From the IMG/VR virus record IMGVR_UViG_3300029763_000196: a stretch of 64,000 nt of DNA, one strand, 5' to 3'. How positions within the stretch are numbered: the stretch's first letter is position 1; each line of letters starts with the position of its first letter. Source of the DNA: a virus. Of this stretch, positions 1 to 17,731 are shown one piece after another. The notes under the pieces are model-generated. The model saw only the letters and a program-made list of their open reading frames with translations, had not been told where the DNA came from and searched no databases. Made by a program: the position numbers and the translations under genes.

Positions 1-120
1 ATGGCTTCGGAACTTGACGAAGGTAAGCGTGCCGAATATCTGAAAGAATACACTGATTATCAGAGTTATCGTATCAAGGCTAAGGAGATCGCAAAAGAAG
101 TATTAGCAAAATTGAAGTAA
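1..120 (+). CDS. 3' end of an ORF truncated by the window edge; same frame as 127..1302 and separated from it only by TAA, so possibly the N-terminal part of the tail-fibre gene
   Basis: frame-1 ORF runs from position 1 to TAA at 118-120; ATG of the next ORF at 127 is in the same frame. Confidence 0.3.
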   Translation: MASELDEGKRAEYLKEYTDYQSYRIKAKEIAKEVLAKLK

Positions 121-126
121 TCCGGT

Positions 127-1302
127 ATGGAGGCGCAAGGGCATATATTAATACGAAGAAAGGCCAAAAATGGAATTGACGGTACTAATGGGGAACCGGG
201 GAAAAACGGGCTGCAAGGCTGTATTCTCCGGCAATCCGAATGGGCTAAAGGCATAGAGTATCGCAATGACGAGGCTTTGACTTCCGGTACCCGGTACTTG
301 GATATTGCAATTGTGACTACCGGTGCTAATACGTTTAATGCGTATAAATGTCTGAAAACTCATACGTCCAGTGATTCCATTCCGGTGACAAATACAACTT
401 ATTGGCAGAAGTTTAATTCTTTGGTGCCAGTGTACACTCCGCTTATCATGGCTCAAAATGCTATTCTACGGTTCATGCAGGGTAATCAGCTTTTGATAAT
501 GAAGGGCGATAATAAAACGGTTGCAGCAGGTCTTGTTGGTGGTGACTATCCGTTATGGGTTGGAGCTACAACACCGACTGATGCGCCATATAAGGTGAGT
601 ATAGCAGGGAAACTCTATGCGGCTGGTGCGGTTATTTCAGGTGACAGCACTTTTGAAGGTACATTGAAAGGTGTATCAGGCTCTTTTACAAGGTTGAATT
701 GCGTGAATGCTGCTGGTGATGCGGTTGGAGGAATCAGCTTTGGAAGTGATGGAAGAATGTGGTTTGATGGTGATATGTATCATCAAGGTACTAAGGATAA
801 CCGGTCATTACGTTTCTACACTTCTGACTTATGGTGTAGAGGCGTGTTTGGCGCAAGGGAAAGAAGCATTATGGTAGTTTACGGCTCCTATGCCTATGTG
901 TACACAAAAGGTGCTGATAAAACCGGTACTTATATACCTTTGACTTCCGGGACTTCCTCTGCTAACGAAACTTATTATACAGTTCCTTGCTATTCGCCAA
1001 GATACGATTATAACGGTGAAACTTCGGGTTTTCCAGTTGATACGGTTATATTTAGAATAACATCGAATGTAACCTACCGTTATCTTTTGAGTCTTGCCGT
1101 CACCCAAAGGATATTCGTGGTTAATGCAAATGACAATTATAATAATGTTCAGATATATGCGAATGGAACAAAGCAAACATTGAATGGCGGTTCCATGCAC
1201 CATTGTATGCAGTTGGTGGATTTTATGTATCCGTCACCGAACTCTGACTGGTTGGGAAGAGGACTGATGTTCGGTGCTTCAAATGATAATGATTGGAAGT
1301 GA
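127..1302 (+). CDS. tail fibre / receptor-binding protein of prophage A with a short collagen-like Gly-X-Y stretch near the N-terminus
   Basis: GIDGTNGEPGKNGLQG triplets; C-terminal ~250 aa (GTLKGVSGSF..VNAAGD.VGGISFGSDG.MWF.GD.YHQG..YTSD.WCRG.FGAR..VVYGSY..ETYYT.P) align with the C-terminus of the 1410-aa tail fibre at 37547..41779. Confidence 0.6.
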   Translation: MEAQGHILIRRKAKNGIDGTNGEPGKNGLQGCILRQSEWAKGIEYRNDEALTSGTRYLDIAIVTTGANTFNAYKCLKTHTSSDSIPVTNTTYWQKFNSLVPVYTPLIMAQNAILRFMQGNQLLIMKGDNKTVAAGLVGGDYPLWVGATTPTDAPYKVSIAGKLYAAGAVISGDSTFEGTLKGVSGSFTRLNCVNAAGDAVGGISFGSDGRMWFDGDMYHQGTKDNRSLRFYTSDLWCRGVFGARERSIMVVYGSYAYVYTKGADKTGTYIPLTSGTSSANETYYTVPCYSPRYDYNGETSGFPVDTVIFRITSNVTYRYLLSLAVTQRIFVVNANDNYNNVQIYANGTKQTLNGGSMHHCMQLVDFMYPSPNSDWLGRGLMFGASNDNDWK

Positions 1303-1568
1303 TTATGAAAAGGATAAATTTTGAAAGAATTGAGATATTTGTTGATATTGATAAGACGAGATGTTCCGTTGAGAACTACAAGAAGGATTTTGCCAATATC
1401 ATTTATCAACTTGGCAGGGGAATAGAGGCTCATGCCCTCGCATTTAAAATATTCAACTCCAATGGAGAAATTGAGTATAACGATGAAGAGTGTAATATGA
1501 TTAAGGAATACGCAAGTTTATGTTCCCCAGCCTTTATTGATGCTATCAACAAATTACTATTGGAATAA
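1293..1568 (+). CDS. small protein downstream of the tail fibre (fibre-associated, chaperone-like?); homolog of 41763..42119
   Basis: position; C-terminal similarity FNSNGEIEYNDEECNMIKEYASLCSPAFIDAINKLL vs YQSTGDIEISAEEALMIKEAALVLSPGGYAQIVKLI. Confidence 0.4.
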   Translation: MEVIMKRINFERIEIFVDIDKTRCSVENYKKDFANIIYQLGRGIEAHALAFKIFNSNGEIEYNDEECNMIKEYASLCSPAFIDAINKLLLE

Positions 1569-1595
1569 AAATAATAAACGCAAACACAAAAGGAT

Positions 1596-2063
1596 ATGAA
1601 CGACATTATTGAAACATTCATTCACGACCATTTGTTTTTACATTTGGTTTTGATAGCGGTAAGTATGACAGCTATCATAATCGCAATGGGGATAGATTTT
1701 ATTTCGGGGATTCAGAAGGCCAAACAGCGTGGGGAACTTCGTACCTCGAAGAAGTACAAAATGACAGCGACAAAAGCGAAGAAATATTTTAATCCGTTTC
1801 TGACACTGGTTATGATTGACCTTATATGTTGCATCGTCATTCCATTTCCAGTATTCGCTATGTTATGGGCGGTTTATTGCGTTTTCTGTGAGTTCAAATC
1901 GGTACGTGAGAAATCATGGGAAAAGGCCGAGCTTCGGAAAGCGGAAAAGACCATGAGTATAATCATTGAGAATAAGGACGATATAGCACGACTGGCCGCA
2001 CAAATATTGTTTGAAACACAAAAAGAAAAGGAGGATAAAAATGACACGGGGACTACGGAATAA
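1596..2063 (+). CDS. holin-like small membrane protein (lysis cassette of prophage A)
   Basis: two predicted hydrophobic helices (LVLIAVSMTAIIIAMGI; LTLVMIDLICCIVIPFPVFAMLWAVYCVF), charged C-tail, position just upstream of the putative lysin. Confidence 0.4.
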   Translation: MNDIIETFIHDHLFLHLVLIAVSMTAIIIAMGIDFISGIQKAKQRGELRTSKKYKMTATKAKKYFNPFLTLVMIDLICCIVIPFPVFAMLWAVYCVFCEFKSVREKSWEKAELRKAEKTMSIIIENKDDIARLAAQILFETQKEKEDKNDTGTTE

Positions 2064-2457
2064 TAATCCGTTAAATATACGGAGAAATAATACGAAATGG
2101 CAGGGGTTGTCTGCAACACAGACAGATAAAAGTTTCTTTCAGTTTAAAACTATGGCATACGGTTATCGTGCTGCTTTTAAAACTCTTCAAACTTATATTC
2201 TTAATAAGTATGATACTGACAAAGACGGCACGGCCAATGAACTTGAAGATGTTATTATGCGATGGGCACCGCCATGTGAGAACAATACTGAAGTGTATAT
2301 TGCCACAGTCGAAAAGCGTTCAGGCATATCTCGTCATACAATTCTGAACAGAAACAACCGGGAACAACTTATTGCGGTGGTGGCTGCAATGAGTTATGTT
2401 GAGAATGGTGTTCCTGCAAACATGGATGAGGTAAGGAAAGGTTGGGAGTTGATATAG
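2041..2457 (+). CDS. putative lysis-module protein or endolysin-like protein with a conserved RNNNPLNIR..W.G motif
   Basis: strong SD (aaaggagga) 6 nt before ATG 2041; motif family seen next to holins in Bacteroidetes phages; function not directly recognisable. Confidence 0.3.
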   Translation: MTRGLRNNNPLNIRRNNTKWQGLSATQTDKSFFQFKTMAYGYRAAFKTLQTYILNKYDTDKDGTANELEDVIMRWAPPCENNTEVYIATVEKRSGISRHTILNRNNREQLIAVVAAMSYVENGVPANMDEVRKGWELI

Positions 2458-2485
2458 GAAACAAACATATAAACACATAGAAGAT

Positions 2486-3193
2486 ATGGCAAACTTGAAT
2501 TTTACTCTTAAAGAAGAGGATTGGTACGAAAGCCAACCTATACAGTTATCTACTGGGAAATTTGCTATTAGCATCAATTTTGGAGATGCAGCAAACAACA
2601 GAGTTGTTGTGTACAAAAGTTCTAATGGAAAGGATTATGTACCTTACAAAACAGCACTTGGGGTTGGAGAGTTCTGTGATATGAATGTCGACGGGTTGAT
2701 AGCCGGACAATATGTTATGGTAGGATGTAATGAACTTCCTATTTCATCTTCATTTTTGGAAAGTTCTGATGGTAGCAGCAGTGCGAGCAAATCGGATATT
2801 TTAGCAGAAAGCGGACGTGCTCAACTGGCAGAGTCCCAACTGGAACAGTCCATAAATGCGGTGAAGACCGCTTTGGATGAATTGGTTGGTACTGTTGATG
2901 CGACTACGGCCATTGACACCTTCAATGAAATTGAAACCTTCCTTGCAGGAGTAACCAATGAAAAAACTCTGACTGGAATGTTGGCTGTTACTGATGGAAA
3001 GGCCGTGACCGCACAAACAACGGCTGATGCTGCAAAAAGTACAGCTCAAACAGCTCTTAGCAAAGCCACTGCCAATGAAACAAAACTTAATACAATACCT
3101 GAAATGCCGGAGAATGACGGTAAGATATATGGTTTCTGTAATGGTGCATGGGTAGTTATTGCGGAAGTTGGTAAAAATGTATATACAGATTGA
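2486..3193 (+). CDS. hypothetical protein with C-terminal coiled-coil region
   Basis: ORF with good coding periodicity, in lysis/late operon. Confidence 0.3.
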   Translation: MANLNFTLKEEDWYESQPIQLSTGKFAISINFGDAANNRVVVYKSSNGKDYVPYKTALGVGEFCDMNVDGLIAGQYVMVGCNELPISSSFLESSDGSSSASKSDILAESGRAQLAESQLEQSINAVKTALDELVGTVDATTAIDTFNEIETFLAGVTNEKTLTGMLAVTDGKAVTAQTTADAAKSTAQTALSKATANETKLNTIPEMPENDGKIYGFCNGAWVVIAEVGKNVYTD

Positions 3194-3753
3194 TTATGAG
3201 ATTGAAGATAGGTATAGGAGTAATCTTTGTGTTACTCCTTGCGGCAACCTTTTTGATGTACCGGTTGTGGCAGGAAGAGAAGAAGGAAAGTGCCCGACTT
3301 TCAGATAATATGAAAAGTCTCTGTACTGGGCTTGAAGAATATAAGATTAGGGATAGTCTAAATGTGGTTGAAAACCATGTTTTACGGCTTAACATAGAAG
3401 AATTGAAAGAGCTGCGGAGTGCGGATGCAAAACTAATAAAAGAATTGAATCTGCGTCCAAAAGAAGTCGAATATATCACAACCACAAAAGTTGTCACTAA
3501 AGACAGTATTGTATTTGTTCTGAAAGACAGCTGTTTCAATTATTCAGATAAATGGGTGGATTTTTATGCAAATATTCCTGACAGCACATTTACTTATGAA
3601 GTGAGAGACAGTCTTTCAAGTGCGATAAGCCGGATATATAAACACAGGTTCCTATGGTGGAGATGGGGGACAAAGGGGTATAAACAAACGATAGTCAATC
3701 ATAACCCACGAAGCAAAATCGTTTATAATGAAATTGTAAAGGTGGAACATTAA
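3190..3753 (+). CDS. N-terminal signal-anchor membrane protein with coiled coil (spanin-like?)
   Basis: hydrophobic helix IGIGVIFVLLLAATFLMY followed by charged helical region; start overlaps upstream stop (ATGA). Confidence 0.3.
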   Translation: MIMRLKIGIGVIFVLLLAATFLMYRLWQEEKKESARLSDNMKSLCTGLEEYKIRDSLNVVENHVLRLNIEELKELRSADAKLIKELNLRPKEVEYITTTKVVTKDSIVFVLKDSCFNYSDKWVDFYANIPDSTFTYEVRDSLSSAISRIYKHRFLWWRWGTKGYKQTIVNHNPRSKIVYNEIVKVEH

Positions 3754-3760
3754 TTAATAA

Positions 3761-3792
3761 GAAGGGAGCCGAAATGCTCCCTTCTCCTTTTT
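3761..3792. terminator. bidirectional rho-independent terminator between convergent genes
   Basis: perfect 9-bp stem GAAGGGAGC / GCTCCCTTC with 6-nt loop, T-run downstream and A-run upstream. Confidence 0.55.
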
Positions 3793-3794
3793 CT

Positions 3795-4196
3795 TTAGAA
3801 AGGCAAATCGTCTTTTTGTTCCCCAAAATCCACTGGCGGTTGAGGTATGGCAGTTTGTACGGGTGCCGCGGTGGATGATGCCCCCTGATAATAAGTTTGG
3901 GGCTGTTGCGCTGCGGTAGGCTGTCCTGGATTACGGAGTGTTGCTTTCCAGCAAGTAATGGAGTTAAACCATTTTCCTTGCCATTCATTCGCATTAATAT
4001 CTATTTCAATATCAACGTCTTGCCCGACTGCTAATCCAAAATTCTGAATATTGCTATTCATTACTGAAAAAGCGACTTTTTTAGGGTATTGGCCGGGAAT
4101 TTCCAAAACGAAATCTTGTCTTTGCCAGTTGTTACCATTTTTTGAGACACCCGATTGTATCGGTTGTGCCACAATAATTTTTCCTTCTAATTTCAT
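3795..4196 (-). CDS. DUF3127 domain protein
   Basis: MKLEGKIIV..QSGVSKNGNNWQRQDFVLE..YPKKVAF..W.GKWFNSITCWK pattern typical of the DUF3127 family of Bacteroidetes and phages. Confidence 0.55.
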   Translation of the reverse strand: MKLEGKIIVAQPIQSGVSKNGNNWQRQDFVLEIPGQYPKKVAFSVMNSNIQNFGLAVGQDVDIEIDINANEWQGKWFNSITCWKATLRNPGQPTAAQQPQTYYQGASSTAAPVQTAIPQPPVDFGEQKDDLPF

Positions 4197-4202
4197 TGTT
4201 CG

Positions 4203-4379
4203 CTTATAAATAGTTAAACACTATATGCCCGGCCTTTTCAAGTTTACGGGCATAATCTAACATTCTTTCTTTAGTGCTGAAACTTTCATCATTCCACCAA
4301 ATGCCAAATCTTTTAATCTGACACTGATAGCGTTTGTCTCCTAATAGATTCTCGGATATTCCTATACGATATTTTGCCA
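4203..4379 (-). CDS. small hypothetical protein (58 aa), below the ORF-track length cut-off
   Basis: ATG (rc) at 4379, MAKYRIGISENLLGDKRYQCQIKRFGIWWNDESF..., fills the gap between flanking genes. Confidence 0.25.
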
Positions 4380-4382
4380 TTT

Positions 4383-5048
4383 TTATTCATCATCCCCAGC
4401 CGGATTTAACTTGTCTGACTCATTGATTGCGCGGCTGATAATATCACAATCAGTAAGTTTTCGTTGTATGATAGCCATCCCCCTTTTGCAATTATCACTT
4501 TGATTGAGGTCACAATACCCTCCCTTATATAAAATATCAGAAAGTTCGTCCAATACTTTAAGTGTGTCAGTGAGCCGGAGATATGTTATTCCGGTTACTT
4601 CTTTGTTGTATGGACGGACTTCTTCTATCCGTTTGTCAAGGGATAGACAAGCAAGCTCTGCCATACATCTTGTAAGTTCTACTTTGGCAAGTAAGGCACT
4701 GTTTTCAATCCGGCATTTGTCAAATTCCAGTTTAATGGAGTATTCCATTTTAAGCAGATCAGGTTGTACTTCATCTGCAATATACTGGTTAGCATCAGCC
4801 ATGAAAAAAGCCCGGTGTCCAGCTATTTTATTGATTTTCTTTTCATATTGAAGCATCAACTGTTCCAGTTTATTTCCTTGCTGCTTTACGCGGAAACGAC
4901 AAAGCCTTGATTTACGTAATTCACTTAACATTTCTACAATTAAGGAACAAACTATGTCATTGGTGAACAATATGTTATATATTGCTGCCAGTGTGATATT
5001 TTCAGCTTTTAACTTCTTGTCTTTTATATCACCTATTTTTCTTTCCAT
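4383..5048 (-). CDS. hypothetical protein
   Basis: 221-aa ORF in the leftward early operon. Confidence 0.4.
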   Translation of the reverse strand: MERKIGDIKDKKLKAENITLAAIYNILFTNDIVCSLIVEMLSELRKSRLCRFRVKQQGNKLEQLMLQYEKKINKIAGHRAFFMADANQYIADEVQPDLLKMEYSIKLEFDKCRIENSALLAKVELTRCMAELACLSLDKRIEEVRPYNKEVTGITYLRLTDTLKVLDELSDILYKGGYCDLNQSDNCKRGMAIIQRKLTDCDIISRAINESDKLNPAGDDE

Positions 5049-5138
5049 AAGTTCATGAAATCTTTATAGACACATGGTAGTGCAAAGATAAGGACAAACG
5101 TCTCAACAATCAACTTTATTAATTGTCCGGTTCCTATA

Positions 5139-5438
5139 TCAATCCATTCTGTTTTTATTATAATTCATTTTGGCTTCAATGAGTGAATCAATGTCACATT
5201 TGAAATGATGTAGTGTACTTAGGGCAACAATGATTACATCTGCCAGTTCTTCTTCTACATCTAAATACTCTTTAATATGTGGAGATTTCTCACCCGTACA
5301 CTCAAAGACTTCGGCAACTTCTTCAAGCAGATCGCGGTGAAGATTGTTGTTGCTATCATTGTCGGGATCAATCTTTCCACGTCTTACGGCACATTCATAA
5401 GCTTTCTGCGCGATCTCATTTAATTTTCCCATTATCAA
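5139..5438 (-). CDS. MazG-like nucleoside triphosphate pyrophosphohydrolase
   Basis: EEVAEVFE ... EELADVIIVAL motifs typical of the all-alpha NTP-PPase (MazG) fold; ~100 aa as in phage MazG. Confidence 0.6.
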   Translation of the reverse strand: MIMGKLNEIAQKAYECAVRRGKIDPDNDSNNNLHRDLLEEVAEVFECTGEKSPHIKEYLDVEEELADVIIVALSTLHHFKCDIDSLIEAKMNYNKNRMD

Positions 5439-5817
5439 TATGTTTTATCCAGTTATTATCTTTCTCCAAAAACCATTGCCAGCCATTTTGGGGCTTGATT
5501 TTTCGTTTTATATACCGGCGAACTGTGGCATAATTCAGATTTAGCTTTTGGGCGGCTTGGGTTATTGAATCGAATCTATACCATTTGCCTTCGGGAGTGA
5601 TTGCGATACACGCAAAGGCATGGGCGTTTCCATTAGACCAATATCTATGTCCTTTCAAAGCCTCGCTGTGTCTTTTTCTTATTTCAACAGCTCTCTCTTT
5701 GCCATAGTATTCTTCATAGGTTTTTCCTCTTAATCCGTGGTGATAGCCTTTATTGAAAACATTATGTCCGTTGACAACCCGTGTGACCGGTATTTCAGGG
5801 TCTAATCTTAATTCCAT
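5416..5817 (-). CDS. homing-endonuclease-like DNA-binding protein (NUMOD-type modules)
   Basis: RKRHSEALKGHRYWSNG (NUMOD3-like) and ITPEGKWYRFDSITQAAQKLNLNYATVRRYIK (NUMOD1-like HTH); no clear nuclease core. Confidence 0.35.
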   Translation of the reverse strand: MELRLDPEIPVTRVVNGHNVFNKGYHHGLRGKTYEEYYGKERAVEIRKRHSEALKGHRYWSNGNAHAFACIAITPEGKWYRFDSITQAAQKLNLNYATVRRYIKRKIKPQNGWQWFLEKDNNWIKHIDNGKIK

Positions 5818-5818
5818 A

Positions 5819-6334
5819 TTATTCCTTATTTTTGTAATTATCTCTTCTCATTTGGTGATAGCGATAGTACATGGATAAGTCGAGTTTACGAATGAAATTA
5901 TCATCCGCTTTCATGTCAGAAACTTTTTGGGCAGGCTTGACTACCTCAAAGAAAATTCTCTTTACCGCATACCTTCCCTTTTCAAGAGAATAACATTGCA
6001 CTGATCCTTCATAAGCATAAATAAGCCCGGCAAAATCAGGGACTTCATCGGGCTTTATCAAACTTTTTGGTACTATATAATAAAAATAATTGGTACGTTG
6101 GCCGGAAGTGACAACATCAAACTTGTTCTTGCCATATTTATCACTTTTCTTTTTATCCTTATGGAAATCACATCTGCTTACTTTTACTTCATATTCATAA
6201 GTCAGGCGTGACCGGGTAACTTCCAATAAGTCAGCTTCCCATTTCCCGACAAAAATATTGGGAAAGATGCGGTTTCCTTTTTTATCACGAAAAACATGAT
6301 CGCAAAAGCCTTGTATAATATCAAGTGTTTTCAT
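5819..6334 (-). CDS. hypothetical protein, possible PD-(D/E)xK nuclease fold
   Basis: EAD..LEV..EYEVKVS arrangement resembles a D...E.K motif; weak. Confidence 0.25.
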   Translation of the reverse strand: MKTLDIIQGFCDHVFRDKKGNRIFPNIFVGKWEADLLEVTRSRLTYEYEVKVSRCDFHKDKKKSDKYGKNKFDVVTSGQRTNYFYYIVPKSLIKPDEVPDFAGLIYAYEGSVQCYSLEKGRYAVKRIFFEVVKPAQKVSDMKADDNFIRKLDLSMYYRYHQMRRDNYKNKE

Positions 6335-6738
6335 TTGATCTTTCCATGTTCCTTATCCAGTTCATACTCAAAAAATCCTTTTGCCTTATCATAAAGTCCG
6401 TCCTTTATATCAGAGAAATACATAGCGGCATTAAAGGCTTTCAATGCTGCCACACGAGCTTTCTTCTTATAATAGTCTGCCCGTTTGATCGTATTTTCTT
6501 CTTTTCTACGTTCTTGCTGTTCCAAATATCGGTCAACCGCTTCTCGTCCCCAACGGAACATGTCTTCTTTGTCGGCAAAGGTGGCAGATTCTTCACGGAT
6601 CAGCCTTTTCTCCGAGGAAATGACATAAGCTGATATTCCTTTGTATCTACGAATGGAAACGGCTATGTCGAAACCTTTATAATTTTGCTGTTCAACATAG
6701 CCGCCAAGAGTATATGGGAAGTCTGTCTTTTCTATCAT
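6331..6738 (-). CDS. hypothetical protein
   Basis: ORF, overlaps neighbours by 4 nt at both ends (operon packing). Confidence 0.4.
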   Translation of the reverse strand: MIEKTDFPYTLGGYVEQQNYKGFDIAVSIRRYKGISAYVISSEKRLIREESATFADKEDMFRWGREAVDRYLEQQERRKEENTIKRADYYKKKARVAALKAFNAAMYFSDIKDGLYDKAKGFFEYELDKEHGKIK

Positions 6739-8006
6739 ACAGCTTTGATATTGATTAGTGGCACAATTGTATCAATAATTTCTACCGTAGGTTCTATAAG
6801 CTCTTTTATTTCCTGAACATTTTTGTATGCCATAGGACTTTCATCCAATGTCCCTTCACATACGGAAGTGGAATACACTTTGCTCATTTGGGTTTTGAAT
6901 GCGTCCATTGATAATCTTTCTTTAGCTTCGGAACGGGAGTATAAGCGTCCTGCACCATGTGGTGCAGAATAGTTCCAGTCTTTGTTTCCCTTACCACGAC
7001 AAAGAAGAATACCGTCTGCCATATTCATAGGAATCACAACGTAATCATTGGCGTATGCGGCAATAGCCCCTTTACGGATTATCATATCATCAAAGCTGAT
7101 ATAGTTATGGACTGTCTCAACGGATATTGTAGCGTTCCAGCTCAAAGTTCTGATTATACGCTGTATAATCAACTTGCGGTTGAATGCGGCATATCCTTGT
7201 GCGATCACCATGTCACATAAATAGTGGAGCATTGCTTCATTTGTGAGATACCCGGAATATTCGGCAAATTTTTCCTTCAAACGTAGTATTTCAGTTTGCA
7301 TGAATTGTGGCTCAACAGTGGACTTCAAGCGTTGAATTTCATTAGAAAAAGCCTTTTTATCAAATTTTGCTATTTCTGCATGGTATTTACAGACCTTCAC
7401 ACCAAAGTTGCGCGATCCGGTATGTATTGTAAGAAATATATTATTGGTTGACTCGGCACGCCCCAGTTCTATAAAGTGGTTTCCACCTCCCAATGTACCT
7501 AAAGAGTTGTAGAATGTGCCTTCATTTATCCCCACCTTCTTACAAAGTTGTGATACATATTCTTCATTAATAACTGGTTTGGTTAGTTGGTATTTAGAGC
7601 AGAACTGATCCATTCTGATAGATAAGAAGGTAAACAAATCTTCCTTTTCTTGTTTGGATAAGGGTTGTTGGTTAATCTCAAATCCCATAGGTATGATGGA
7701 ACGGATTGCATGATTAATGTCCGGGAAAGACTCTTCTGTTATTGCATTTTCAATTTCTACACACAACATTCCACAACCAATATCCACTCCGATATGATTG
7801 GGGTTGACACGATCTGTAACTGGCATGGTGAATCCAATCACTATATCTACTCCCTGATGGGTATCAGGCATAATACGAACCGGAACACCAGTCGTAACCG
7901 GATTGTTCAAAATGTTTTGTATCGTTCCAATAGCTTCATTTTCTATTGCATTTGTAAATATTTTACAATCTTTGCCGAATTTTCCTTGTAATTCAATCAT
8001 AATCAA
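6735..8006 (-). CDS. rtcB: RtcB family RNA 3'-phosphate ligase (tRNA repair ligase)
   Basis: RtcB hallmark motifs RIMPDTHQG, GVDIGCGM, GGGNHFIE, APHGAGR in the expected order; 423 aa. Confidence 0.9.
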   Translation of the reverse strand: MIMIELQGKFGKDCKIFTNAIENEAIGTIQNILNNPVTTGVPVRIMPDTHQGVDIVIGFTMPVTDRVNPNHIGVDIGCGMLCVEIENAITEESFPDINHAIRSIIPMGFEINQQPLSKQEKEDLFTFLSIRMDQFCSKYQLTKPVINEEYVSQLCKKVGINEGTFYNSLGTLGGGNHFIELGRAESTNNIFLTIHTGSRNFGVKVCKYHAEIAKFDKKAFSNEIQRLKSTVEPQFMQTEILRLKEKFAEYSGYLTNEAMLHYLCDMVIAQGYAAFNRKLIIQRIIRTLSWNATISVETVHNYISFDDMIIRKGAIAAYANDYVVIPMNMADGILLCRGKGNKDWNYSAPHGAGRLYSRSEAKERLSMDAFKTQMSKVYSTSVCEGTLDESPMAYKNVQEIKELIEPTVEIIDTIVPLINIKAV

Positions 8007-8212
8007 ATCTTTTCGTTAAGTTTTTCAAGAAGTTCATTCGCACAGTTCTTTGCGTATTCTTCATCTTCATCATGAAAGGACTTGACTGTTATCCAAATCC
8101 CTGCAAATTTAACTTGTACTTTGTAATCAAGAAGGAGGTATTTCTCTCTGTTTCCGCTGCAATTATCTTCTACGAAGGTAGTCGTTTTATTGATTCTGTA
8201 CTGTTTCATCAT
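8003..8212 (-). CDS. hypothetical protein
   Basis: small ORF overlapping rtcB stop by 4 nt. Confidence 0.35.
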   Translation of the reverse strand: MMKQYRINKTTTFVEDNCSGNREKYLLLDYKVQVKFAGIWITVKSFHDEDEEYAKNCANELLEKLNEKI

Positions 8213-8465
8213 TATTTATTTCTTTAGAGTAGCAATTTCTATCAAGTATCTTAATGCACTGTTTAATTCCAGTATCAAATCCTTCTTTATAGCCTTTGGT
8301 ATGCTCACCTAAAACATATATAGTCATTGACAGCCAAAATAGAAGTATGCCAACGGATTTATACCAGCATGGTAAAGATACAGAAAAGGGTTTTAAGGTG
8401 ATAGAGAAATCACCGATCCACAGAAGACCGGCAATGAGCATGAGTAAATATAAGACTTTCATCAT
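8187..8465 (-). CDS. small membrane protein
   Basis: two hydrophobic segments (LYLLMLIAGLLWIGDF; SVGILLFWLSMTIYVL). Confidence 0.35.
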   Translation of the reverse strand: MMKVLYLLMLIAGLLWIGDFSITLKPFSVSLPCWYKSVGILLFWLSMTIYVLGEHTKGYKEGFDTGIKQCIKILDRNCYSKEINNDETVQNQ

Positions 8466-8954
8466 TTATCATTGTTAAGTTCAACATATTTGCCTTGTAA
8501 AGAGCAGTTCCTTAAAATTTCGGCATTTTCCCGGCCAAATGCAATAAGAACACTACCGCAACCGGGGCTGTCCCCACGTGTTCCATCGGGACGGAAGAAT
8601 TTTATTCGATTCCTCAAAAACATCATACCGGTTGCTTTCGTGAAGATGATGTCTTGAAACTTATTGCTGTCACACCGGTTAAAAAGTAGTGCTATACCGT
8701 TGCCGTGTTCTGCCAATTTCTCTACAAACTGCCATATAAGCGGTTTGGAGTACGGAGGGTTAAGCCAAATTCGCCCCCCCCCAATTTTGTATAAGACCAT
8801 TGTCCTGCTTGTTGTACATGATTTTTGCGGTAGGCCAAAGAGGGTGCATGGGAGCACATGGATCAAGGTCAAATTCACCTAATGCTTCAATGATTTCTCG
8901 TGGTGTGTACCATTCATCGGAAGCGTTTGCAGATCGTTCAAAAGATGTATTCAT
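8462..8954 (-). CDS. phage-type N6-adenine DNA methyltransferase, split by a frameshift at a G9 tract in the coding strand (C9 at 8774-8782 on +)
   Basis: N-terminal fragment (8760..8954) DEWYTPREIIE..FDLDPCA and C-terminal fragment (8462..8878) WLNPPYS are the two halves of one phage Dam-like enzyme (PF05869-like); removing 1 G joins ..QNWGG to RIWLNPPYS in frame. Confidence 0.7.
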
Positions 8955-9187
8955 GTATTACTTACATTTAGGATTTTACGAATTTCTATATGATCGCAAT
9001 TTTCATCAGCCTTTTTCAGAATATAAGCAATTTCTTCTTCCTTACTCATGTTCTGTGGACGTTTCGTTGCTTCTGCTCTCAATTCAGAAATAATTTTATC
9101 TACTTCGGGATTAGGAGTTTCATATAATTTTTTAAATTCAGCGGCTCTACGTTTAATAAGTCGCTCTGTCTTTTTGTTTAATTTCAT
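8951..9187 (-). CDS. hypothetical protein
   Basis: 78-aa charged ORF. Confidence 0.35.
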   Translation of the reverse strand: MKLNKKTERLIKRRAAEFKKLYETPNPEVDKIISELRAEATKRPQNMSKEEEIAYILKKADENCDHIEIRKILNVSNT

Positions 9188-9188
9188 C

Positions 9189-10106
9189 TCACAATATTTT
9201 AAAGTATTCCTTACATAAAAAACCTTTTCTTGGTGAAAAGTCTTTGAAGTCGCAACTCATGTATATTTCCTTCCTATCAGCCCAATGTGCCATGTCTTTC
9301 TGCCACTGTGGAATAATTTGGTGTGGATTGTTCAGATCACGAAAGGGTTGACAATGTGGAAGAAAACGGCGGCTTTTAGATTTCCAGTAGTTGACGCGCG
9401 CAAACGATTCTTCAAAGTCCATAAGGATGCAATACAAGAAATATTCCCCTTTATATCCATACTTGTCTATTAAAGCGGAAGCACGTTCAACTTCTGCAAT
9501 CTGTCCCGGTGTATCGCATCCAAAGCGAATACGTTTAATCCATTTTACTTTTGCAAGTAGCCGAGCGATTTCATCCGTGATTAAACGAGCATCCAGTCCT
9601 TGATTAAAATCCACTTTGATACCCAGTTTGATGATTTTCTCTATTTGCTGCAAGCCATAGTTTGAGGCCAGTATATTATTATCCATAAGGATAGCTTTCT
9701 TCCGTCCGGCTGTTATTTCCTCAATATCCATATAAGGTGAGATTTTTCCTTCTTTTTTAGGAACAACCCACCATTTACACCGATTGGGACACCCACGTGT
9801 CAGAAACCCATAGGACAAATTGGAGTCAATATTGTAGATCGAGTAATCAGGTTGAAGACGATCAACCTCAATTGGAAGAACTTTTTCAATATCATATCCA
9901 GTACCACCTTTTTCTATTTGGTTAGCATTGATATAATAGTTATAGTCGGGTGTGAAAGTGAAAACTTTAGCTGCATATACTTTATCATATTTACATAGTG
10001 GATTATACCATTCCACTTGATCGCCTCTTGCTTTGTGGTAAGCACTGATCTTCATAAGTGCTAAATTGGGGAAATTGCTATCAACGGCTAAAATTCCAAT
10101 ATTCAT
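9189..10106 (-). CDS. hypothetical protein with TRGCPNRC (CxxxC) motif and Rossmann-like N-terminus; function unknown
   Basis: 305-aa ORF; not a canonical CxxxCxxC radical-SAM motif. Confidence 0.4.
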   Translation of the reverse strand: MNIGILAVDSNFPNLALMKISAYHKARGDQVEWYNPLCKYDKVYAAKVFTFTPDYNYYINANQIEKGGTGYDIEKVLPIEVDRLQPDYSIYNIDSNLSYGFLTRGCPNRCKWWVVPKKEGKISPYMDIEEITAGRKKAILMDNNILASNYGLQQIEKIIKLGIKVDFNQGLDARLITDEIARLLAKVKWIKRIRFGCDTPGQIAEVERASALIDKYGYKGEYFLYCILMDFEESFARVNYWKSKSRRFLPHCQPFRDLNNPHQIIPQWQKDMAHWADRKEIYMSCDFKDFSPRKGFLCKEYFKIL

Positions 10107-10501
10107 TATTCTTCAAATTTAGGTTTTGGCATCCATGCTATCGGTTCCCATGACGGAGGTATGCTGCTCATTGAAGAGTAAATTGGGTTACCTTTGTACG
10201 TGTCATAGATATAACCATCCATGCAGAACCATACATTGTTGCTATATGTGCCGTTAAAAATCGCACCATGTTTACATAGAATGATGATGTCTTCATTTTC
10301 ATCCGGCAACTGTCCCTTCACGCTTATCCAAGGTGATTGCTTTGACTGCCAGTCAGCACCTTTTATAAATGCAGATTCTGCAATTTCATCATGAGATAAA
10401 TATGTAAAATCATCAAGTGACGTGTGTGTGCCATAAGTAGTTAATGTTTCGGCACTTGTCATCCTTGCTTCCTTTGCCGCTTCTTCTACTGTCTGTTTCA
10501 T
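10106..10501 (-). CDS. hypothetical protein
   Basis: 131-aa ORF, Trp-rich C-terminus. Confidence 0.35.
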   Translation of the reverse strand: MKQTVEEAAKEARMTSAETLTTYGTHTSLDDFTYLSHDEIAESAFIKGADWQSKQSPWISVKGQLPDENEDIIILCKHGAIFNGTYSNNVWFCMDGYIYDTYKGNPIYSSMSSIPPSWEPIAWMPKPKFEE

Positions 10502-10503
10502 AT

Positions 10504-11172
10504 CTATTTATCAAATAAATTAGTTTGAACCAACGTTCCTCTCTCTGTTTTTATCTCCCCAAAACATTCCCGGTGAAAACGTTCTTCTTGTGCTTCAAAG
10601 TATTCTTCATCTATTTCAGTTGCATAGAAATCGAATCCAAGTCCATAAGCAGCTATTCTGCTACTTCCTGAACCTAAATGACTATCAAAAATTTTGTCTC
10701 CCTCTTTGGCGTTTTTTCTTAATATTTCAGCATATAATTTCACTGGCTTCTGACAACGATGGATATTTCCACCTCGTTCTCCAATTGTACACCGGTTTAG
10801 AGTTATGATCCGAAGAGCTTTGTCAAAACTACTCCATGCCAATTCTCCGTCAGACATTGTTAGTCCATGTTGCCCCTTATCCCAGACGATCCAACCCATT
10901 TTAGGAGGCAGATGTTGAGTAAAATAGTTGCCACCGAAAATTATTTGATTCTTACTCACTCTAAATAACTCCTGAAAATATCTTTTGCCAGGTGGTTTCT
11001 TGTCCCAATCCTTGCGTTTATACTGCTTAAAGCCTAAATGCTTCGGCATCCCACCCTTGTGCATTATGTCTATGCCATACTGGGGATCGACTATCGCTAA
11101 ATCAAAGAACTTATCAGGAATCCCCTTCATGTATTCCATACAGTCCATGTTATATACTTCGCTTATCGGCAT
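10504..11172 (-). CDS. DNA methyltransferase, N4-cytosine/N6-adenine beta class (PF01555-like)
   Basis: motif IV DLAIVDPQYG near the N-terminus and motif I FDSHLGSGSS near the C-terminus, plus HRCQKP. Confidence 0.8.
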   Translation of the reverse strand: MPISEVYNMDCMEYMKGIPDKFFDLAIVDPQYGIDIMHKGGMPKHLGFKQYKRKDWDKKPPGKRYFQELFRVSKNQIIFGGNYFTQHLPPKMGWIVWDKGQHGLTMSDGELAWSSFDKALRIITLNRCTIGERGGNIHRCQKPVKLYAEILRKNAKEGDKIFDSHLGSGSSRIAAYGLGFDFYATEIDEEYFEAQEERFHRECFGEIKTERGTLVQTNLFDK

Positions 11173-11186
11173 TATTTATATCCTTT

Positions 11187-11393
11187 TTATTCTTGTTTAT
11201 AACTAAATATTGGCATTTTTTTAGGCTTTGGGCACTCTTTTAGGTAGTTCCTATCAATCGTAAAAATATCCTGCAAAAGACTTTTCTTTAATGCTTTCTT
11301 TTGCTTTCGAGGAAGTCTTATCAATGTTTTGTATTCGTAAATACCGCCTACAATATGCCATAGTCTGAAATTTATTTTTAATCCTTCATACAT
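11187..11393 (-). CDS. hypothetical protein
   Basis: 68-aa basic ORF. Confidence 0.3.
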   Translation of the reverse strand: MYEGLKINFRLWHIVGGIYEYKTLIRLPRKQKKALKKSLLQDIFTIDRNYLKECPKPKKMPIFSYKQE

Positions 11394-11437
11394 GATTTTG
11401 AATATATGGAAGTAATATAAAGATTTTTCTACTAATA

Positions 11438-11629
11438 TTATTTTCTGATTTCTTCGGCTTTAACGTTATATCCAAGTCTTTTCAATCTATTATAATGGAC
11501 TCCACATAAAAATAGGACATTGCCACTTGGGTATGTAACTTTGTATTTAGCAGTATTTTTACATGGAGTAAAATTGTGCCAGCCTCTTATTCTTGTTTTT
11601 CCTTTATCTACGTGCTCTTCACATTTCAT
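11438..11629 (-). CDS. small Cys/His-containing protein (zinc-binding?)
   Basis: C..H...C and C..H spacing in 63 aa. Confidence 0.3.
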   Translation of the reverse strand: MKCEEHVDKGKTRIRGWHNFTPCKNTAKYKVTYPSGNVLFLCGVHYNRLKRLGYNVKAEEIRK

Positions 11630-11702
11630 AACTTAGTCGTTTGCTTTATAATTGTATAGAATGCGTCATACGGCAGACATTTAACAGCCGTATGACATAC
11701 AC

Positions 11703-12155
11703 TTATTTAACTATCATCCAATCGTTAGCAAGCATATCTGTCTGTGATGCAAGCCAACCATTTACAACGGTGCCATCGGCAGCTTTCATACATAAGTATG
11801 CAGTAAATTTGATTTTATCAATTTCCGAATCTCCATAATTGTTGGCTATCCATTTTTTGAATGATTCGGGAAGTGATTTAACATGATTAACAACCTTTTC
11901 CGTTGATAAACAATCTTCAGGACGCATGAATATGAACATACCCTTACCGTTCCATCCTTTACGAGTAACGAGATGCCCTCGTTTGAGAGATTCAAGTGCT
12001 TGCCCAAAGGTTCCCGTTTCTTCTCCAAGTAATTCACATTCCATTGCCCCTTGTCCGTAAATGGTTTCAATAGTTCCTTTGTAGCTTGCAAGTTCAGGGA
12101 ACTCAGCTACAACCCCTGCTGCATATTCGGCAGCCTTTTCGTCTAATGTCTTCAT
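11703..12155 (-). CDS. DUF2829-domain protein (Tad2-like anti-Thoeris sponge candidate) with an extra N-terminal region
   Basis: LESLKRGHLVTRKGWNGKGMFIF ... DGTVVNGWLASQTDMLANDWMIV matches the DUF2829 signature (KRxGWNGKGMYI...W..W). Confidence 0.5.
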   Translation of the reverse strand: MKTLDEKAAEYAAGVVAEFPELASYKGTIETIYGQGAMECELLGEETGTFGQALESLKRGHLVTRKGWNGKGMFIFMRPEDCLSTEKVVNHVKSLPESFKKWIANNYGDSEIDKIKFTAYLCMKAADGTVVNGWLASQTDMLANDWMIVK

Positions 12156-12272
12156 TCTAATAAATGTTTTTGAGTAAACATTGAATCTGCTTCTTGAAAC
12201 TGTTTTGTGAAGCGGTTCTTTTTATAAACTCTTGGTGCAGTACATCCAGTTAACAAAACAAGGAGTGTAAAG

Positions 12273-12280
12273 ATAATAAG
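12273..12280. repeat. left copy of 8-bp flanking direct repeat ATAATAAG (putative target-site duplication of the Mu-like insertion)
   Basis: identical octamer at 47970..47977 immediately outside the inverted terminal transposase-site repeats. Confidence 0.5.
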
Positions 12281-12286
12281 GGGGAT

Positions 12287-12767
12287 AAAACGAAATGCGA
12301 TAAATTGAGTTATTCCGCATAAACGGTAATAGTTTTGATATACAAATAGTTATGTACGAATAGGAGAGGGGAGAGAGAAAAAACGAAAAGTTTACTCTGC
12401 TTTACTTTGGCTTTACTTTGGACTTTACTTTGAACGGTTTGAACGCCCGTCAACTTTACATGGCAATGGAGATGTGATAAACGGAGTAGAGTAGGGTAGG
12501 AGAAATGCGGTACATGGGCTGCGAAATGCTTTATTTAGGCGTTTTGCAGCCCTTTTTGTGCTTTATAGATAGATTGGCTTCCTACTTTTGAATAGTTGAA
12601 ATTTAGTGCTCAAAATAGCGAAAATAGGGATGGGGGAGGAGAGTGGCGATTTTAACGGGAATATTTCGTTTTTTGAGGATTGGATATGCAGTAGGATATG
12701 CGTTTGGGTATGCAAATTTGTCAAGAAAAAAACGAAATGTGTTGATTGGGTATGCGTTTGGATATGC
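12287..12767. promoter_or_regulatory. left-end region with transposase/repressor binding-site repeats
   Basis: AAAACGAAATGCGA (12287-12300), AAAAACGAAAAG (12377-12390), inverted ATTTCGTTTTTT (12663-12674), AAAAAACGAAATGTG (12725-12740); five GG(A/G)TATGC repeats (12682,12694,12706,12748,12760) spaced by CGTTTGG. Confidence 0.5.
12396..12433. repeat. tandem ~10-bp repeats CTTTACTTTG(G) x3.5
   Basis: gctttactttggctttactttggactttactttgaac seen directly. Confidence 0.6.
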
Positions 12768-12976
12768 AATTTAAGCAAAATTAAGATGGGTTGAATTATA
12801 CAAGTTACCATTTTACTACCCGTTTTTATGGCTTTATGTATTATTCAAGGGGGGAAAATACCATATAAAGAATAATGCAAATCAGCATATATGATAGAGT
12901 AATATGCTGATTTATAAAAAGGTATCTGGCAATTTCTGTTTTATTTGTGTTGAAAACGTGCGTGTGTCTCTTTTAT

Positions 12977-13633
12977 TTAGAACAATCTGTGCATACTTCC
13001 TAATACTGCGTATACTTTCTGTATCATGGAAATAGGAATGTCTTGCGGACTGTATTCCGGGCTTTTATTGGTGGGGATTAAGCGAATAAAATCTTTTTGG
13101 TCTGCTTTTCCTATTCGTTTAACAGTCCGATAGCTTTCTGTCACGATGGCATATATTTCTCCATAGGGGAGATATTGGACGGGATCGGTCATTTCTTTGA
13201 GGGCGATATAGTCTCCGTTGCTTAATTCGGGTTCCATAGAATGACCTGTAATATTACACCACACAACACCGGGTTTATTGTAAGGCTCAAAATTTATATA
13301 GTAATCCGGATTAATTGTTTGATCATTTAAAACGAGATCAAATCCACCGATAAAATCTACATTGTAGTAAGGTGCTCCCTTATATTCATAATTAATAGTC
13401 GGGAGTGATAGCGGCTGTGGGGTTTCCTTTAGCATAGAGCCTCGCCCTGTTATTAGCCATTCTAAATTGAGGTGAGGATAATTATCCGCAATAACGGAAA
13501 GCCATTTGCTTTGAATATCTGTTTTATTATTTATGGCTCGCCTAATCATGCCATCGCTCGCAGATATTGACTGTTCAAAAGATCTAACGCTAATCCCTTG
13601 ATTTTGTATAAATTGGCTAATTCGTTCAATCAT
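12977..13633 (-). CDS. CI/LexA-like repressor (XRE HTH + S24 peptidase domain) of the Mu-like phage
   Basis: N-terminal HTH ending LNLEWLITGRGSM; C-terminal GHSMEPEL...GDYIA...RIGK (Ser-Lys dyad peptidase S24 signature); leftward, adjacent to left end as in Mu c. Confidence 0.8.
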   Translation of the reverse strand: MIERISQFIQNQGISVRSFEQSISASDGMIRRAINNKTDIQSKWLSVIADNYPHLNLEWLITGRGSMLKETPQPLSLPTINYEYKGAPYYNVDFIGGFDLVLNDQTINPDYYINFEPYNKPGVVWCNITGHSMEPELSNGDYIALKEMTDPVQYLPYGEIYAIVTESYRTVKRIGKADQKDFIRLIPTNKSPEYSPQDIPISMIQKVYAVLGSMHRLF

Positions 13634-13783
13634 AATTTTATTCTTTCTGTGAAAATAATCACGATTTTGCTTTATATTGTGATAATTATCCTATATATTT
13701 GCATCACCGTATTAATATTACCGGCTGTAAAGGTAGTGAAAACGGCTGATATGACAATGAATAACTTTTAAAAACAATGTGAT

Positions 13784-14184: not shown

Positions 14185-14186
14185 TC

Positions 14187-14594: not shown

Positions 14595-14649
14595 TACAAA
14601 ATGATGTTTCCATGATGATAACGATTTGATTTTGCAAAGGTAAGAAAAA

Positions 14650-14692: not shown

Positions 14693-14708
14693 CAAAGTTT
14701 AAAAAGGT

Positions 14709-16781: not shown

Positions 16782-16792
16782 TTCAAAATAAA

Positions 16793-17674: not shown

Positions 17675-17731
17675 TATAAAAACCTGTTCAAATGCCGGTT
17701 GAACGGCGTTTGAACGTAATTCAAAAAGTAT

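What the first reader, a model, noticed from the sequence alone, without database searches (positions are those of the whole stretch)
127..1568. Receptor-binding module shared between the two unrelated prophages
The C-terminal ~250 aa of the prophage A fibre (127..1302) and of the phage B 1410-aa fibre (about 40990..41779) are clearly homologous, and so are the small genes immediately downstream of each (1293..1568 and 41763..42119). The rest of the two phages is unrelated. This suggests horizontal exchange of a host-recognition cassette, or recombination between a resident prophage and the phage that transposed into it.
Basis: seen in the sequence. Interest (0 to 1): 0.55.

Follow-up and report, generated by a model that had tools for sequence, protein, structure and literature searches.

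The report
Shared tail-fibre tip in two phages
Two unrelated gut Bacteroides/Phocaeicola phages lying one inside the other carry the same kind of tail-fibre tip domain, but the copies diverged long ago and were not swapped between these two phages, so this is ordinary tail-fibre mosaicism.

Summary
The last ~225 aa of the 391-aa protein (127..1302) and of the 1410-aa protein (37547..41779) are 56% identical (E 6e-70). The small genes downstream share a ~46-aa core. No other ORF pair between the two phages matches.

Phage A is a LoVEphage (98-99.7% nt identity to published genomes). Phage B is a 35.7-kb Mu-like, Hankyphage-like transposable phage inserted at 12277..47972 with a 4-bp target duplication.

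The shared region is an uncharacterised all-beta domain. It always sits at the extreme C-terminus of Bacteroidales phage tail proteins, on at least 5 unrelated scaffolds of 355 to more than 1600 aa. Breakpoints at its start are sharp, and its distal half is the more variable part.

The two copies here were not exchanged with each other. Nucleotide identity is 62% and synonymous sites are saturated. They fall in separate deep clades. Near-identical copies of each occur in phages that are not co-resident.

The small gene belongs to an undescribed family of ~90-aa proteins that follows large tail-protein genes. It is not specific to this tip: it follows other tips, and many carriers of this tip lack it.

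Receptor binding is inferred, not shown. This is a new member of a known kind.

The parts
127..1302 (+). LoVEphage-type tail fibre-like gene (391 aa, equivalent to PV4-TP1 gp28). Its N-terminal scaffold, aa 1-166, carries a short collagen-like G-X-Y run (aa 16-33).
625..1299 (+). Tip module, copy A (aa 167-391). The proximal half is conserved and the distal half is variable.
   Evidence: 56% identical to copy B, E 6e-70. Matches phrog_31303 C-terminus at E 1e-42. Model pLDDT is above 85 for aa 245-390, all-beta. Within the LoVE lineage the N-terminus is 98-100% identical while this part ranges from 100% down to 64% among close relatives, and to ~47% in variants whose N-terminus is itself only ~83% identical.
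1305..1568 (+). Small fibre-coupled gene sA (87 aa from the ATG; the TTG at 1293 would give 91 aa).
   Evidence: Belongs to a family of 198 clusters at 50% identity. Model pLDDT 97. Absent from Pfam and PHROGs. Shares a core with sB (the phage B small protein at 41799..42119).
37547..41779 (+). Phage B large tail-tip or fibre protein (1410 aa), lying directly after the tape measure (33333..37058) and a small tail protein (37055..37516).
   Evidence: phrog_22546 E 5.9e-226 for aa 3-1075. Gene order. Internal ~63-aa tandem repeats at 40556..40974.
41111..41776 (+). Tip module, copy B (aa 1189-1410).
   Evidence: The sibling phage L006 is 75-90% identical per 100-aa block up to ...AKNGEF(S/T)G, then carries a non-homologous tip. 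GC is 0.454 against 0.50-0.565 in the flanks.
41799..42119 (+). Small fibre-coupled gene sB (106 aa from ATG 41799; the ORF can also start at 41763).
   Evidence: 63% identical to its homologue in L006 even though the tip there is different.
12277..47972 (+). Mu-like, Hankyphage-like transposable phage B (35.7 kb, ~50% GC) inserted into the LoVEphage genome.
   Evidence: Window 1..12276 and 47973..64000 are contiguous in PV4-TP1 (25005..36715 and 36712..52721). MuA and MuB are present. The end motif AAACGAAATGCGA occurs once at the left end and three times at the right end and nowhere else. The same left end starts at exactly this base in 4 other genomes, each with a different flank. GC profile.
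12273..12276 (.). Left copy of the 4-bp target-site duplication ATAA. The right copy is at 47973..47976.
   Evidence: PV4-TP1 positions 36712-36715 are present on both sides of the insert.

Best explanation
Both proteins end in a member of one uncharacterised, all-beta, ~225-aa tail-fibre tip family found in Bacteroidales phages. The family is a portable C-terminal module.

Anatomy. It starts at a conserved junction, G-x-F-x-G-x-(L/V)-x-G-V-S-G-S-F-x-x-L-x-C-V-N. It has a conserved proximal half and a variable distal half, and it is always the extreme C-terminus of the protein. It is found on at least 5 unrelated N-terminal scaffolds.

Likely function (inferred). The distal half is the part of the virion that contacts the host surface, that is, the receptor-binding domain. 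Recombination at or just after the conserved junction lets phages replace it.

History (shown). The two copies in this window are old relatives, each inherited within its own phage lineage (LoVEphage and a Mu-like transposable phage). They are side by side only because the Mu-like phage transposed into a LoVEphage genome in a shared Phocaeicola/Bacteroides cell. No DNA passed between them at this locus.

Small gene. The ~90-aa gene downstream belongs to an undescribed family that is tightly coupled to the 3' end of large tail-protein genes. It is most likely a general fibre assembly or accessory factor rather than a partner specific to this tip.
For: Homology:
- 56% identity over 228 aa, E 6e-70. 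It is the only similarity between the two phages apart from the small gene.

Modularity:
- 106 and 97 database clusters match the two copies, and 304 IMG/VR stretches encode a relative.
- In 89 loci the module is always at the extreme C-terminus, in proteins of 355 to more than 1648 aa, and the scaffolds fall into at least 5 clusters unrelated by BLASTP.
- It also occurs in cultured B. uniformis phages F1/F2/F4 and in P. gingivalis phage005, where the protein follows the distal tail protein and is annotated as a tail protein.

Breakpoints:
- LoVE-type proteins keep aa 1-165 at 98-100% identity while aa 166-391 ranges from 100% to 64%.
- The LoVE variant L010 is 98-100% identical at nucleotide level for 101-800, 64-82% for 801-1300, and 90-94% after the stop codon.
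- The Mu-like sibling L006 is 75-90% identical per 100-aa block up to GEF(S/T)G, then has an unrelated tip.

Age and independence of the two copies:
- 62% nucleotide identity, pS 0.73, dN 0.36. They lie in separate deep clades.
- The A protein is 390/391 identical in BI-TP1, and window 1..3100 is 100% identical at nucleotide level to PV4-TP1; neither has the insert.
- The phage B left end is found in P. massiliensis and three MAGs, each with a different non-LoVE flank.

Tail identity:
- Gene order in phage B is tape measure, tail protein, then the 1410-aa protein.
- The A protein lies at the end of the tail module, just before the holin and endolysin.
- There is a collagen-like G-X-Y run in the N-terminus of A (sequence).

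Small gene:
- It lies -31 to +12 nt from the fibre stop codon in every locus where it occurs.
- It also follows 1059 to more than 1667-aa proteins in four sampled distant members.
Against: - The model is a monomer with mean pLDDT 70.
- The distal half is only moderately more variable than the proximal half across the whole family: frequency of the commonest residue 0.50-0.60 against 0.72-0.78.
- The same A fibre (390/391) occurs in phages induced from two host genera, B. intestinalis and P. vulgatus. So this tip alone does not track host species.
- Both phages also carry a DGR-diversified tail protein, which could be the main host-range determinant.
- In the Mu-like lineage the tip and the small gene form a common low-GC block. 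That leaves some room for a two-gene cassette in that lineage.
Confidence: 0.75

Rival explanations
1. Recent recombination between the resident LoVEphage prophage and the Mu-like phage that inserted into it moved the tip, with or without the small gene, from one to the other.
For: The two phages are physically in one DNA molecule. The only homologous genes they share are these two adjacent ones.
Against: - Nucleotide identity is only 62-69% and synonymous sites are saturated.
- The copies are in separate deep clades.
- Each lineage carries its own tip type in phages that are not co-resident.
- B is closer to other LoVE variants (62%) than to its neighbour (56%).
- Each copy has largely taken on the codon GC of its own genome: GC3 0.36 against 0.51.
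Confidence: 0.02
2. The tip and the small downstream gene travel together as a two-gene host-range cassette: a receptor-binding domain with its cognate chaperone, as with T4 gp37/gp38 or lambda Stf/Tfa.
For: - Tip plus small gene occur together on at least 4 unrelated scaffolds: LoVE, Mu-like, L041 and L093.
- In Mu-like phages both have lower GC than the flanks: 0.45/0.44 against 0.50-0.565 in the window, and 0.42/0.42 against 0.48/0.51 in L006.
- The small gene of L006, which has a different tip, is more diverged (63% aa) than the scaffold (75-90% per 100-aa block). The small gene of L008, which has the same tip, is 90% identical.
Against: - The small family follows fibres with at least 3-4 non-homologous tips (L006, L095, L096, L097).
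- This tip occurs without the small gene on most scaffold types: the F1-like 355-aa type, the 380-aa type, scaffold clusters 2, 3 and 4, and Porphyromonas phage005.
- In LoVE variants the divergent patch stops at the fibre stop codon, and the small gene stays at 86-94% identity while the tip falls to 64-72%.
- sA and sB share only a ~40-aa core.
- There is no similarity to Tfa, gp38 or any Pfam or PHROG family.
Confidence: 0.2
3. The shared domain is not a receptor-binding domain. It is instead a conserved structural, assembly or enzymatic C-terminal unit, such as a trimerisation knob, an auto-cleaving intramolecular chaperone or a depolymerase.
For: - The proximal half has invariant Gly, Asp, Cys and Arg positions (G178, G185, F187, G209, G215, D216, G221, C237, R238).
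- The best structural hit is a tailspike depolymerase.
- The same tip is used in phages from different host genera.
Against: - No Peptidase_S74 or any other Pfam match.
- The distal end is the most variable part, whereas intramolecular chaperones are the conserved part.
- Replacement by unrelated tips at exactly the same junction is what exchangeable specificity domains do.
- The depolymerase hit has rmsd 9.1 A and TM 0.2, so it shows no more than a general tailspike likeness.
Confidence: 0.2

Closest known systems
Mosaic tail-fibre genes of coliphages (P2 H/G, Mu S/U, P1, lambda Stf/Tfa, T4 gp37/gp38): C-terminal receptor-binding parts shared among otherwise unrelated phages.
   Same: A C-terminal part of a tail-fibre protein, followed by a small downstream gene, is homologous between phages whose other genes are unrelated. 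Breakpoints are sharp at the scaffold/tip junction. The tip is replaced by unrelated tips in sibling phages.
   Different: There is no sequence or profile similarity to those proteins or to Tfa or gp38 chaperones. The hosts are Bacteroidales. The small gene is not tip-specific. There is no invertible segment.
phrog_31303 (980-aa profile, unknown function) and the 980-aa 'tail protein' of Porphyromonas phage phage005
   Same: The C-terminal ~250 positions of the profile match both copies (E 1e-42 and 8.7e-72). In phage005 the protein follows the distal tail protein.
   Different: The scaffold is different, and the downstream 90-aa gene there is not a member of the sA family.
LoVEphage (Van Espen et al. 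2021, PMC8525569) and its induced isolates PV4-TP1 and BI-TP1
   Same: Window 1..12276 and 47973..64000 are 96.5-99.7% identical to these genomes. The fibre and small gene correspond to PV4-TP1 gp28/gp29.
   Different: In this window the genome is interrupted by a 35.7-kb transposable phage. Published records annotate gp28/gp29 only as hypothetical proteins.
Hankyphage / Hankyvirus (Bacteroides phage p00; PMC12135933, PMC12629997)
   Same: Transposable, with MuA- and MuB-like genes. Carries a DGR acting on a tail protein. Infects Bacteroides/Phocaeicola hosts and inserts at many sites.
   Different: Only ~70% nucleotide identity, over part of the transposase gene. 35.7 kb against 42.8 kb. No megablast match for the structural half. 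Hankyphage p00 is not among the records that carry this tip.

Membership tests
Horizontally exchanged C-terminal tail-fibre (receptor-binding) module | Lies at the C-terminus of a tail fibre or tail tip protein | tested here: met
Horizontally exchanged C-terminal tail-fibre (receptor-binding) module | Homologous between phages that are otherwise unrelated, on unrelated N-terminal scaffolds | tested here: met
   (at least 5 scaffold clusters).
Horizontally exchanged C-terminal tail-fibre (receptor-binding) module | Sharp identity breakpoints at the domain boundary, and replacement by unrelated tips in close relatives | tested here: met
   LoVE lineage; Mu-like lineage.
Horizontally exchanged C-terminal tail-fibre (receptor-binding) module | Binds the host receptor and determines host range | not testable with these tools
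   No solved or characterised homologue. The same tip is found in phages from B. intestinalis and P. vulgatus.
Recent exchange between the two co-resident phages | Near-identical nucleotide tract shared by the two loci | tested here: not met
   62-69% nucleotide identity and dS about 2.7. Separate clades.
Tail fibre assembly chaperones (lambda Tfa / Mu U, PF02413; T4 gp38) | Sequence or profile similarity of the small downstream protein to these families | tested here: not met
Tail fibre assembly chaperones (lambda Tfa / Mu U, PF02413; T4 gp38) | Encoded immediately downstream of the fibre gene | tested here: met
   The gap or overlap is -31 to +12 nt in every locus that has the gene. The same holds for four distant members.
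Tail fibre assembly chaperones (lambda Tfa / Mu U, PF02413; T4 gp38) | Co-varies with, or is specific to, the cognate tip | tested here: inconclusive
   For: the low-GC block and the higher divergence in L006. Against: it follows 3-4 unrelated tips and is missing from most carriers of this tip.
Auto-cleaving intramolecular chaperone domain (Peptidase_S74) | Pfam S74 match at the C-terminus | tested here: not met
   No Pfam match at E <= 0.01.
Mu-like transposable phage (context, phage B) | MuA- and MuB-type genes, short target duplication, repeated end motifs, insertion at many different sites | tested here: met
   phrog_310 E 5e-92 and phrog_296 E 8e-56. 4-bp ATAA duplication. The end motif is found only at the ends, 1 + 3 copies. 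Four other genomes have different flanks.
LoVEphage (context, phage A) | Near-identical, collinear nucleotide sequence | tested here: met
   96.5-99.7% identity over 28 kb to MW660583, PQ571302 and others.

The most novel reading that the evidence does not exclude
The ~90-aa protein encoded directly after the fibre gene belongs to a large family (198 clusters at 50% identity) that is absent from Pfam and PHROGs and has a confidently predicted fold with no solved relative. It may be a new, general tail-fibre assembly or tip-adaptor factor of Bacteroidales phages. Its variable N-terminal half would read the tip type and its conserved C-terminal core would dock on the fibre. Together with the tip, it would form a portable host-range unit in some lineages.
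Probability: 0.25. Interest if true: 0.5.

Novelty: new member of a known kind. Interest (0 to 1): 0.3.

Why it matters
Tail-fibre mosaicism is textbook biology, so the phenomenon is not new. Three practical points remain.

- **A candidate host-recognition tip.** It puts a domain boundary and a family definition on a likely host-recognition tip that is widespread in human-gut Bacteroides, Phocaeicola and Porphyromonas phages. [quoted passage not shown] This gives a concrete target for host-range engineering or prediction.
- **An unannotated partner family.** It flags a small protein family that is consistently coupled to fibre genes.
- **A caution for interpretation.** Finding homologous tips in two co-resident phages does not imply exchange between them. 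Divergence and phylogeny have to be checked first.

Tried and rejected
- **BI-TP1 fibre.** BI-TP1 (host B. intestinalis) first seemed to lack window 1..4274, which suggested a different fibre. This was an artefact of where the linear record starts. Its gp7 is 390/391 identical to A.
- **Locus scan with the small-protein alignment.** The search for related loci failed because no stretch was conserved enough. I used HMMs on loci fetched with the tip alignment instead.
- **Solved structures, tip.** No solved structure by sequence. Fold searches gave only a weak general likeness to tailspikes.
- **Family libraries.** Pfam and PHROGs gave no family for the small protein or for 51 relatives.
- **Phage B in the phage collection.** Megablast of the structural half of phage B found nothing.
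- **Source genome.** An exact search for the LoVE/Mu left junction in representative genomes found nothing, so the source genome and the recurrence of this composite are unknown.
- **Intramolecular chaperone or depolymerase reading of the tip.** I rated it less likely because there is no S74 match and the distal part is the variable one.
Full report
**1. The observation**

The ORF at 127..1302 (391 aa) is complete. An in-frame stop at 118-120 separates it from the tail end of an upstream gene.

Its aa 167-390 align with aa 1189-1410 of the 1410-aa ORF at 37547..41779. The match is 127/228 identical (56%), 70% positive, 10 gap positions, E 6e-70, and forms one contiguous domain-length block. 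In nucleotide coordinates the blocks are 625..1299 and 41111..41776.

The small ORFs downstream (1293..1568 and 41763..42119) match over their last 46 aa only: 46% identity, E 6e-11. A profile of the family built without any Mu-like member still finds the phage B protein, at 27 bits over ~37 aa. The likely real starts are ATG 1305 (as annotated in PV4-TP1 gp29) and ATG 41799.

I compared every ORF of at least 60 aa in the low-GC part of the window with every ORF of the high-GC part. Only these two pairs match at E <= 1e-3.

**2. The two phages**

GC content is ~38% for about 1-14,000 and 48,000-64,000, and ~50% in between.

The low-GC DNA is a LoVEphage. Window 1..12276 and 47973..64000 are 96.5-99.7% identical to Bacteroides phage LoVEphage MW660583 and to the induced temperate phages PV4-TP1 (P. 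vulgatus) and BI-TP1 (B. intestinalis). In PV4-TP1 the two window segments abut. They map to record positions 25005..36715 and 36712..52721, so 4 bp (ATAA) are duplicated at the junctions.

The 35,696-bp insert at 12277..47972 carries these genes:

| Coordinates | Gene |
|---|---|
| 12977..13633 (-) | CI-like repressor |
| 14709..16781 | MuA-type transposase (phrog_310, E 5e-92) |
| 16793..17674 | MuB-type protein |
| 26394..27914 (-) | large terminase |
| 23428..25962 (-) | portal |
| 29541..30452 | major head protein |
| 33333..37058 | tape measure |
| 37055..37516 | small tail protein |
| 37547..41779 | the 1410-aa protein |

- The motif AAACGAAATGCGA occurs four times in the window, only at the insert's ends: once at the left and three times at the right, inverted.
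- The same left end starts at exactly the same base in Phocaeicola massiliensis DSM 17679 and in three Bacteroides/Phocaeicola MAGs. Each has a different flank, and none of those flanks is LoVEphage DNA.
- Its nearest named relatives are Hankyphage-type phages, at ~70% nucleotide identity over part of the transposase gene. The structural half has no megablast match in the phage collection.

**3. What the shared region is**

It has no Pfam family. In PHROGs it matches only the C-terminal ~250 positions of phrog_31303, a 980-aa profile of unknown function.

Database searches with either copy return about 100 clusters each, all from gut metagenomes or Bacteroides genomes. A scan of IMG/VR found 304 stretches encoding a relative.

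I built HMMs for the module and for the small protein and applied them to all fetched loci.
- The module is at the extreme C-terminus in every one of 89 loci. The proteins run to about 355, 391, 400, 463, 481, 600, 700, 800, 1060, 1190, 1340, 1420, 1500, more than 1560 and more than 1648 aa.
- The N-terminal parts fall into at least five clusters unrelated by BLASTP.
- The module is also in cultured phages: B. uniformis phages F1, F2 and F4, and Porphyromonas gingivalis phage005. In phage005 the 980-aa protein follows the distal tail protein and is annotated as a tail protein.

The N-terminus of A has a short collagen-like G-X-Y run (NGIDGTNGEPGKNGLQG), a motif common in fibres.

**4. Modular behaviour**

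In the LoVE lineage:
- In LoVE-type proteins whose aa 1-165 are 98-100% identical to the window copy, aa 166-391 range from 100% down to 64% identity. More distant LoVE-type variants (N-terminus ~83% identical) fall to ~47%.
- At nucleotide level the variant L010 is 98-100% identical for 101-800. It then falls to 82, 79, 66, 66 and 64% per 100-nt bin across 801-1300, and returns to 90-94% right after the stop codon.
- So the divergent patch is the distal ~170 aa of the tip, and it ends with the gene.

In the Mu-like lineage:
- The sibling phage L006 has a 1426-aa protein that is 75-90% identical to B per 100-aa block through ...TTDGKIIAKNGEF(S/T)G.
- It then continues with a completely unrelated C-terminal domain.

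The start of the module, G-x-F-x-G-x-(L/V)-x-G-V-S-G-S-F-x-x-L-x-C-V-N, is the best conserved part across all scaffolds. Similar G-x-F-x-G...SGS junctions precede other tip types.

Across the family the proximal 60-80 aa are more conserved than the distal part: frequency of the commonest residue 0.72-0.78 against 0.50-0.60. A against B shows the same gradient, 70-80% identity for aa 182-240 and 37-50% for aa 306-390.

This is the behaviour expected of an exchangeable specificity domain attached through a conserved joint.

**5. Was it exchanged between these two phages? No.**

- Aligned codons are 62% identical. pS is 0.73 (dS about 2.7, saturated) and dN is 0.36. BLASTN finds only two patches, at 65-69% identity.
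- In a neighbour-joining tree of 58 unique modules, A lies in a LoVE clade and B in a Mu-like clade, separated by deep branches.
- B is closer to the LoVE variants P0021 and P0024 (62%) than to its neighbour A (56%). Both A and B are about as far from the F1-type 355-aa proteins (52-58%) as from each other.
- The A protein is 390/391 identical in BI-TP1, and window 1..3100 is 100% identical at nucleotide level to PV4-TP1. Neither carries the insert. B-type tips 95-99% identical occur on Mu-like scaffolds or fragments in IMG/VR contigs.
- Each copy has mostly adopted the codon composition of its own genome, GC3 0.36 against 0.51.

The module tree is not fully congruent with scaffold type. For example, L009 is a LoVE scaffold with a distant tip, and L045 and L072 group away from their scaffold relatives. 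Exchange between scaffolds does happen, but on a much longer time scale.

**6. The small gene**

Wherever it occurs it lies -31 to +12 nt from the stop codon of a large tail protein. Four distant members sampled from the search list follow proteins of 1059, at least 1111, at least 1295 and at least 1665 aa.

It is not specific to this tip.
- Only one of those four proteins (L093) ends in the module. The other three, and L006, end in other, unrelated tips.
- Conversely, the module occurs without the small gene on the F1-type scaffold, the 380-aa type, scaffold clusters 2, 3 and 4, and Porphyromonas phage005.
- In LoVE variants whose tip is only 64-72% identical, the small protein stays at 86% identity or above.

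Some evidence points towards a looser cassette.
- In Mu-like phages the tip and small gene share a lower GC than their flanks.
- The L006 small gene is more diverged (63%) than the scaffold.

My reading is that this is a general fibre-coupled assembly or accessory factor. That is inferred from position only, with low confidence (about 0.35).

**7. Mechanism and confidence**

Shown:
- domain-length homology;
- strictly C-terminal location in tail proteins;
- presence on at least 5 unrelated scaffolds;
- sharp breakpoints;
- ancient divergence of the two local copies;
- independent inheritance of each copy.

Inferred:
- the distal half contacts the host surface;
- recombination at the conserved joint changes specificity.

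Caveats:
- The same A fibre is found in phages induced from two host genera.
- Both phages also have a DGR-diversified tail protein, which may be the main adhesin.

**8. Novelty**

What is new is the particular, unannotated domain family and its small partner family in Bacteroidales phages. I rate it a new member of a known kind, of modest interest.

Noticed in passing
window 12277..47972 (junctions at 12273-12276 and 47973-47976): A 35.7-kb Mu-like transposable phage sits inside a LoVEphage genome, in the small hypothetical gene equivalent to PV4-TP1 gp53, with a 4-bp ATAA duplication. The composite would be about 107 kb against ~72 kb for LoVEphage, so the LoVEphage may no longer be packageable. 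The exact junction was not found in 185,579 representative genomes.
   Followed up: partly
window 44321..44442 (VR), 44679..44800 (TR), RT 44780..46297: Phage B carries a diversity-generating retroelement. The variable and template repeats are 90% identical, and all 12 mismatches fall at adenines of the template repeat. The variable repeat is the C-terminus of the 481-aa tail protein at 43027..44472. LoVEphage (PV4-TP1 gp23/gp24) has its own DGR just upstream of the window. Several other phages carrying the tip module also have a reverse transcriptase or DGR genes close by (F1; L002, L005).
   Followed up: partly
window 40556..40974: There are tandem ~63-aa repeats in the shaft of the 1410-aa protein (IDHTIKTAGWITTADGNKLWAT...HESSFHVTAQQINAIVSR), 79% identical at nucleotide level, just upstream of the tip.
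   Followed up: no
window 12288-12300 (+), 47900-47912, 47926-47938, 47949-47961 (-): The motif AAACGAAATGCGA occurs only at the two ends of the insert, 1 + 3 copies, against 0.12 expected by chance. These are probably transposase-binding end repeats.
   Followed up: yes
L099 (Phocaeicola massiliensis DSM 17679, NZ_KB905472), L100-L102: The same phage B left end (96.5% identical over 6.7 kb in L099) is present in a cultured type strain and in three MAGs at four different insertion sites. Phage B relatives could therefore be studied in an available strain.
   Followed up: partly
window 10370..12276 against LoVEphage genomes: The LoVEphage early region next to the insertion point varies among LoVEphage genomes. 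MW660583 matches only to 10370, and OY725593 and BI-TP1 only to 11197. This is a second mosaic spot, unrelated to the fibre.
   Followed up: no
window 1596..2457: Holin-like (phrog_20732, weak Phage_holin_4_1) and endolysin-like (phrog_873) genes directly follow the small gene in LoVEphage. The order large tail protein, small gene, putative lysis genes recurs in the unrelated locus L093, where a 109-aa ORF and an Amidase_3 gene follow the small gene.
   Followed up: no
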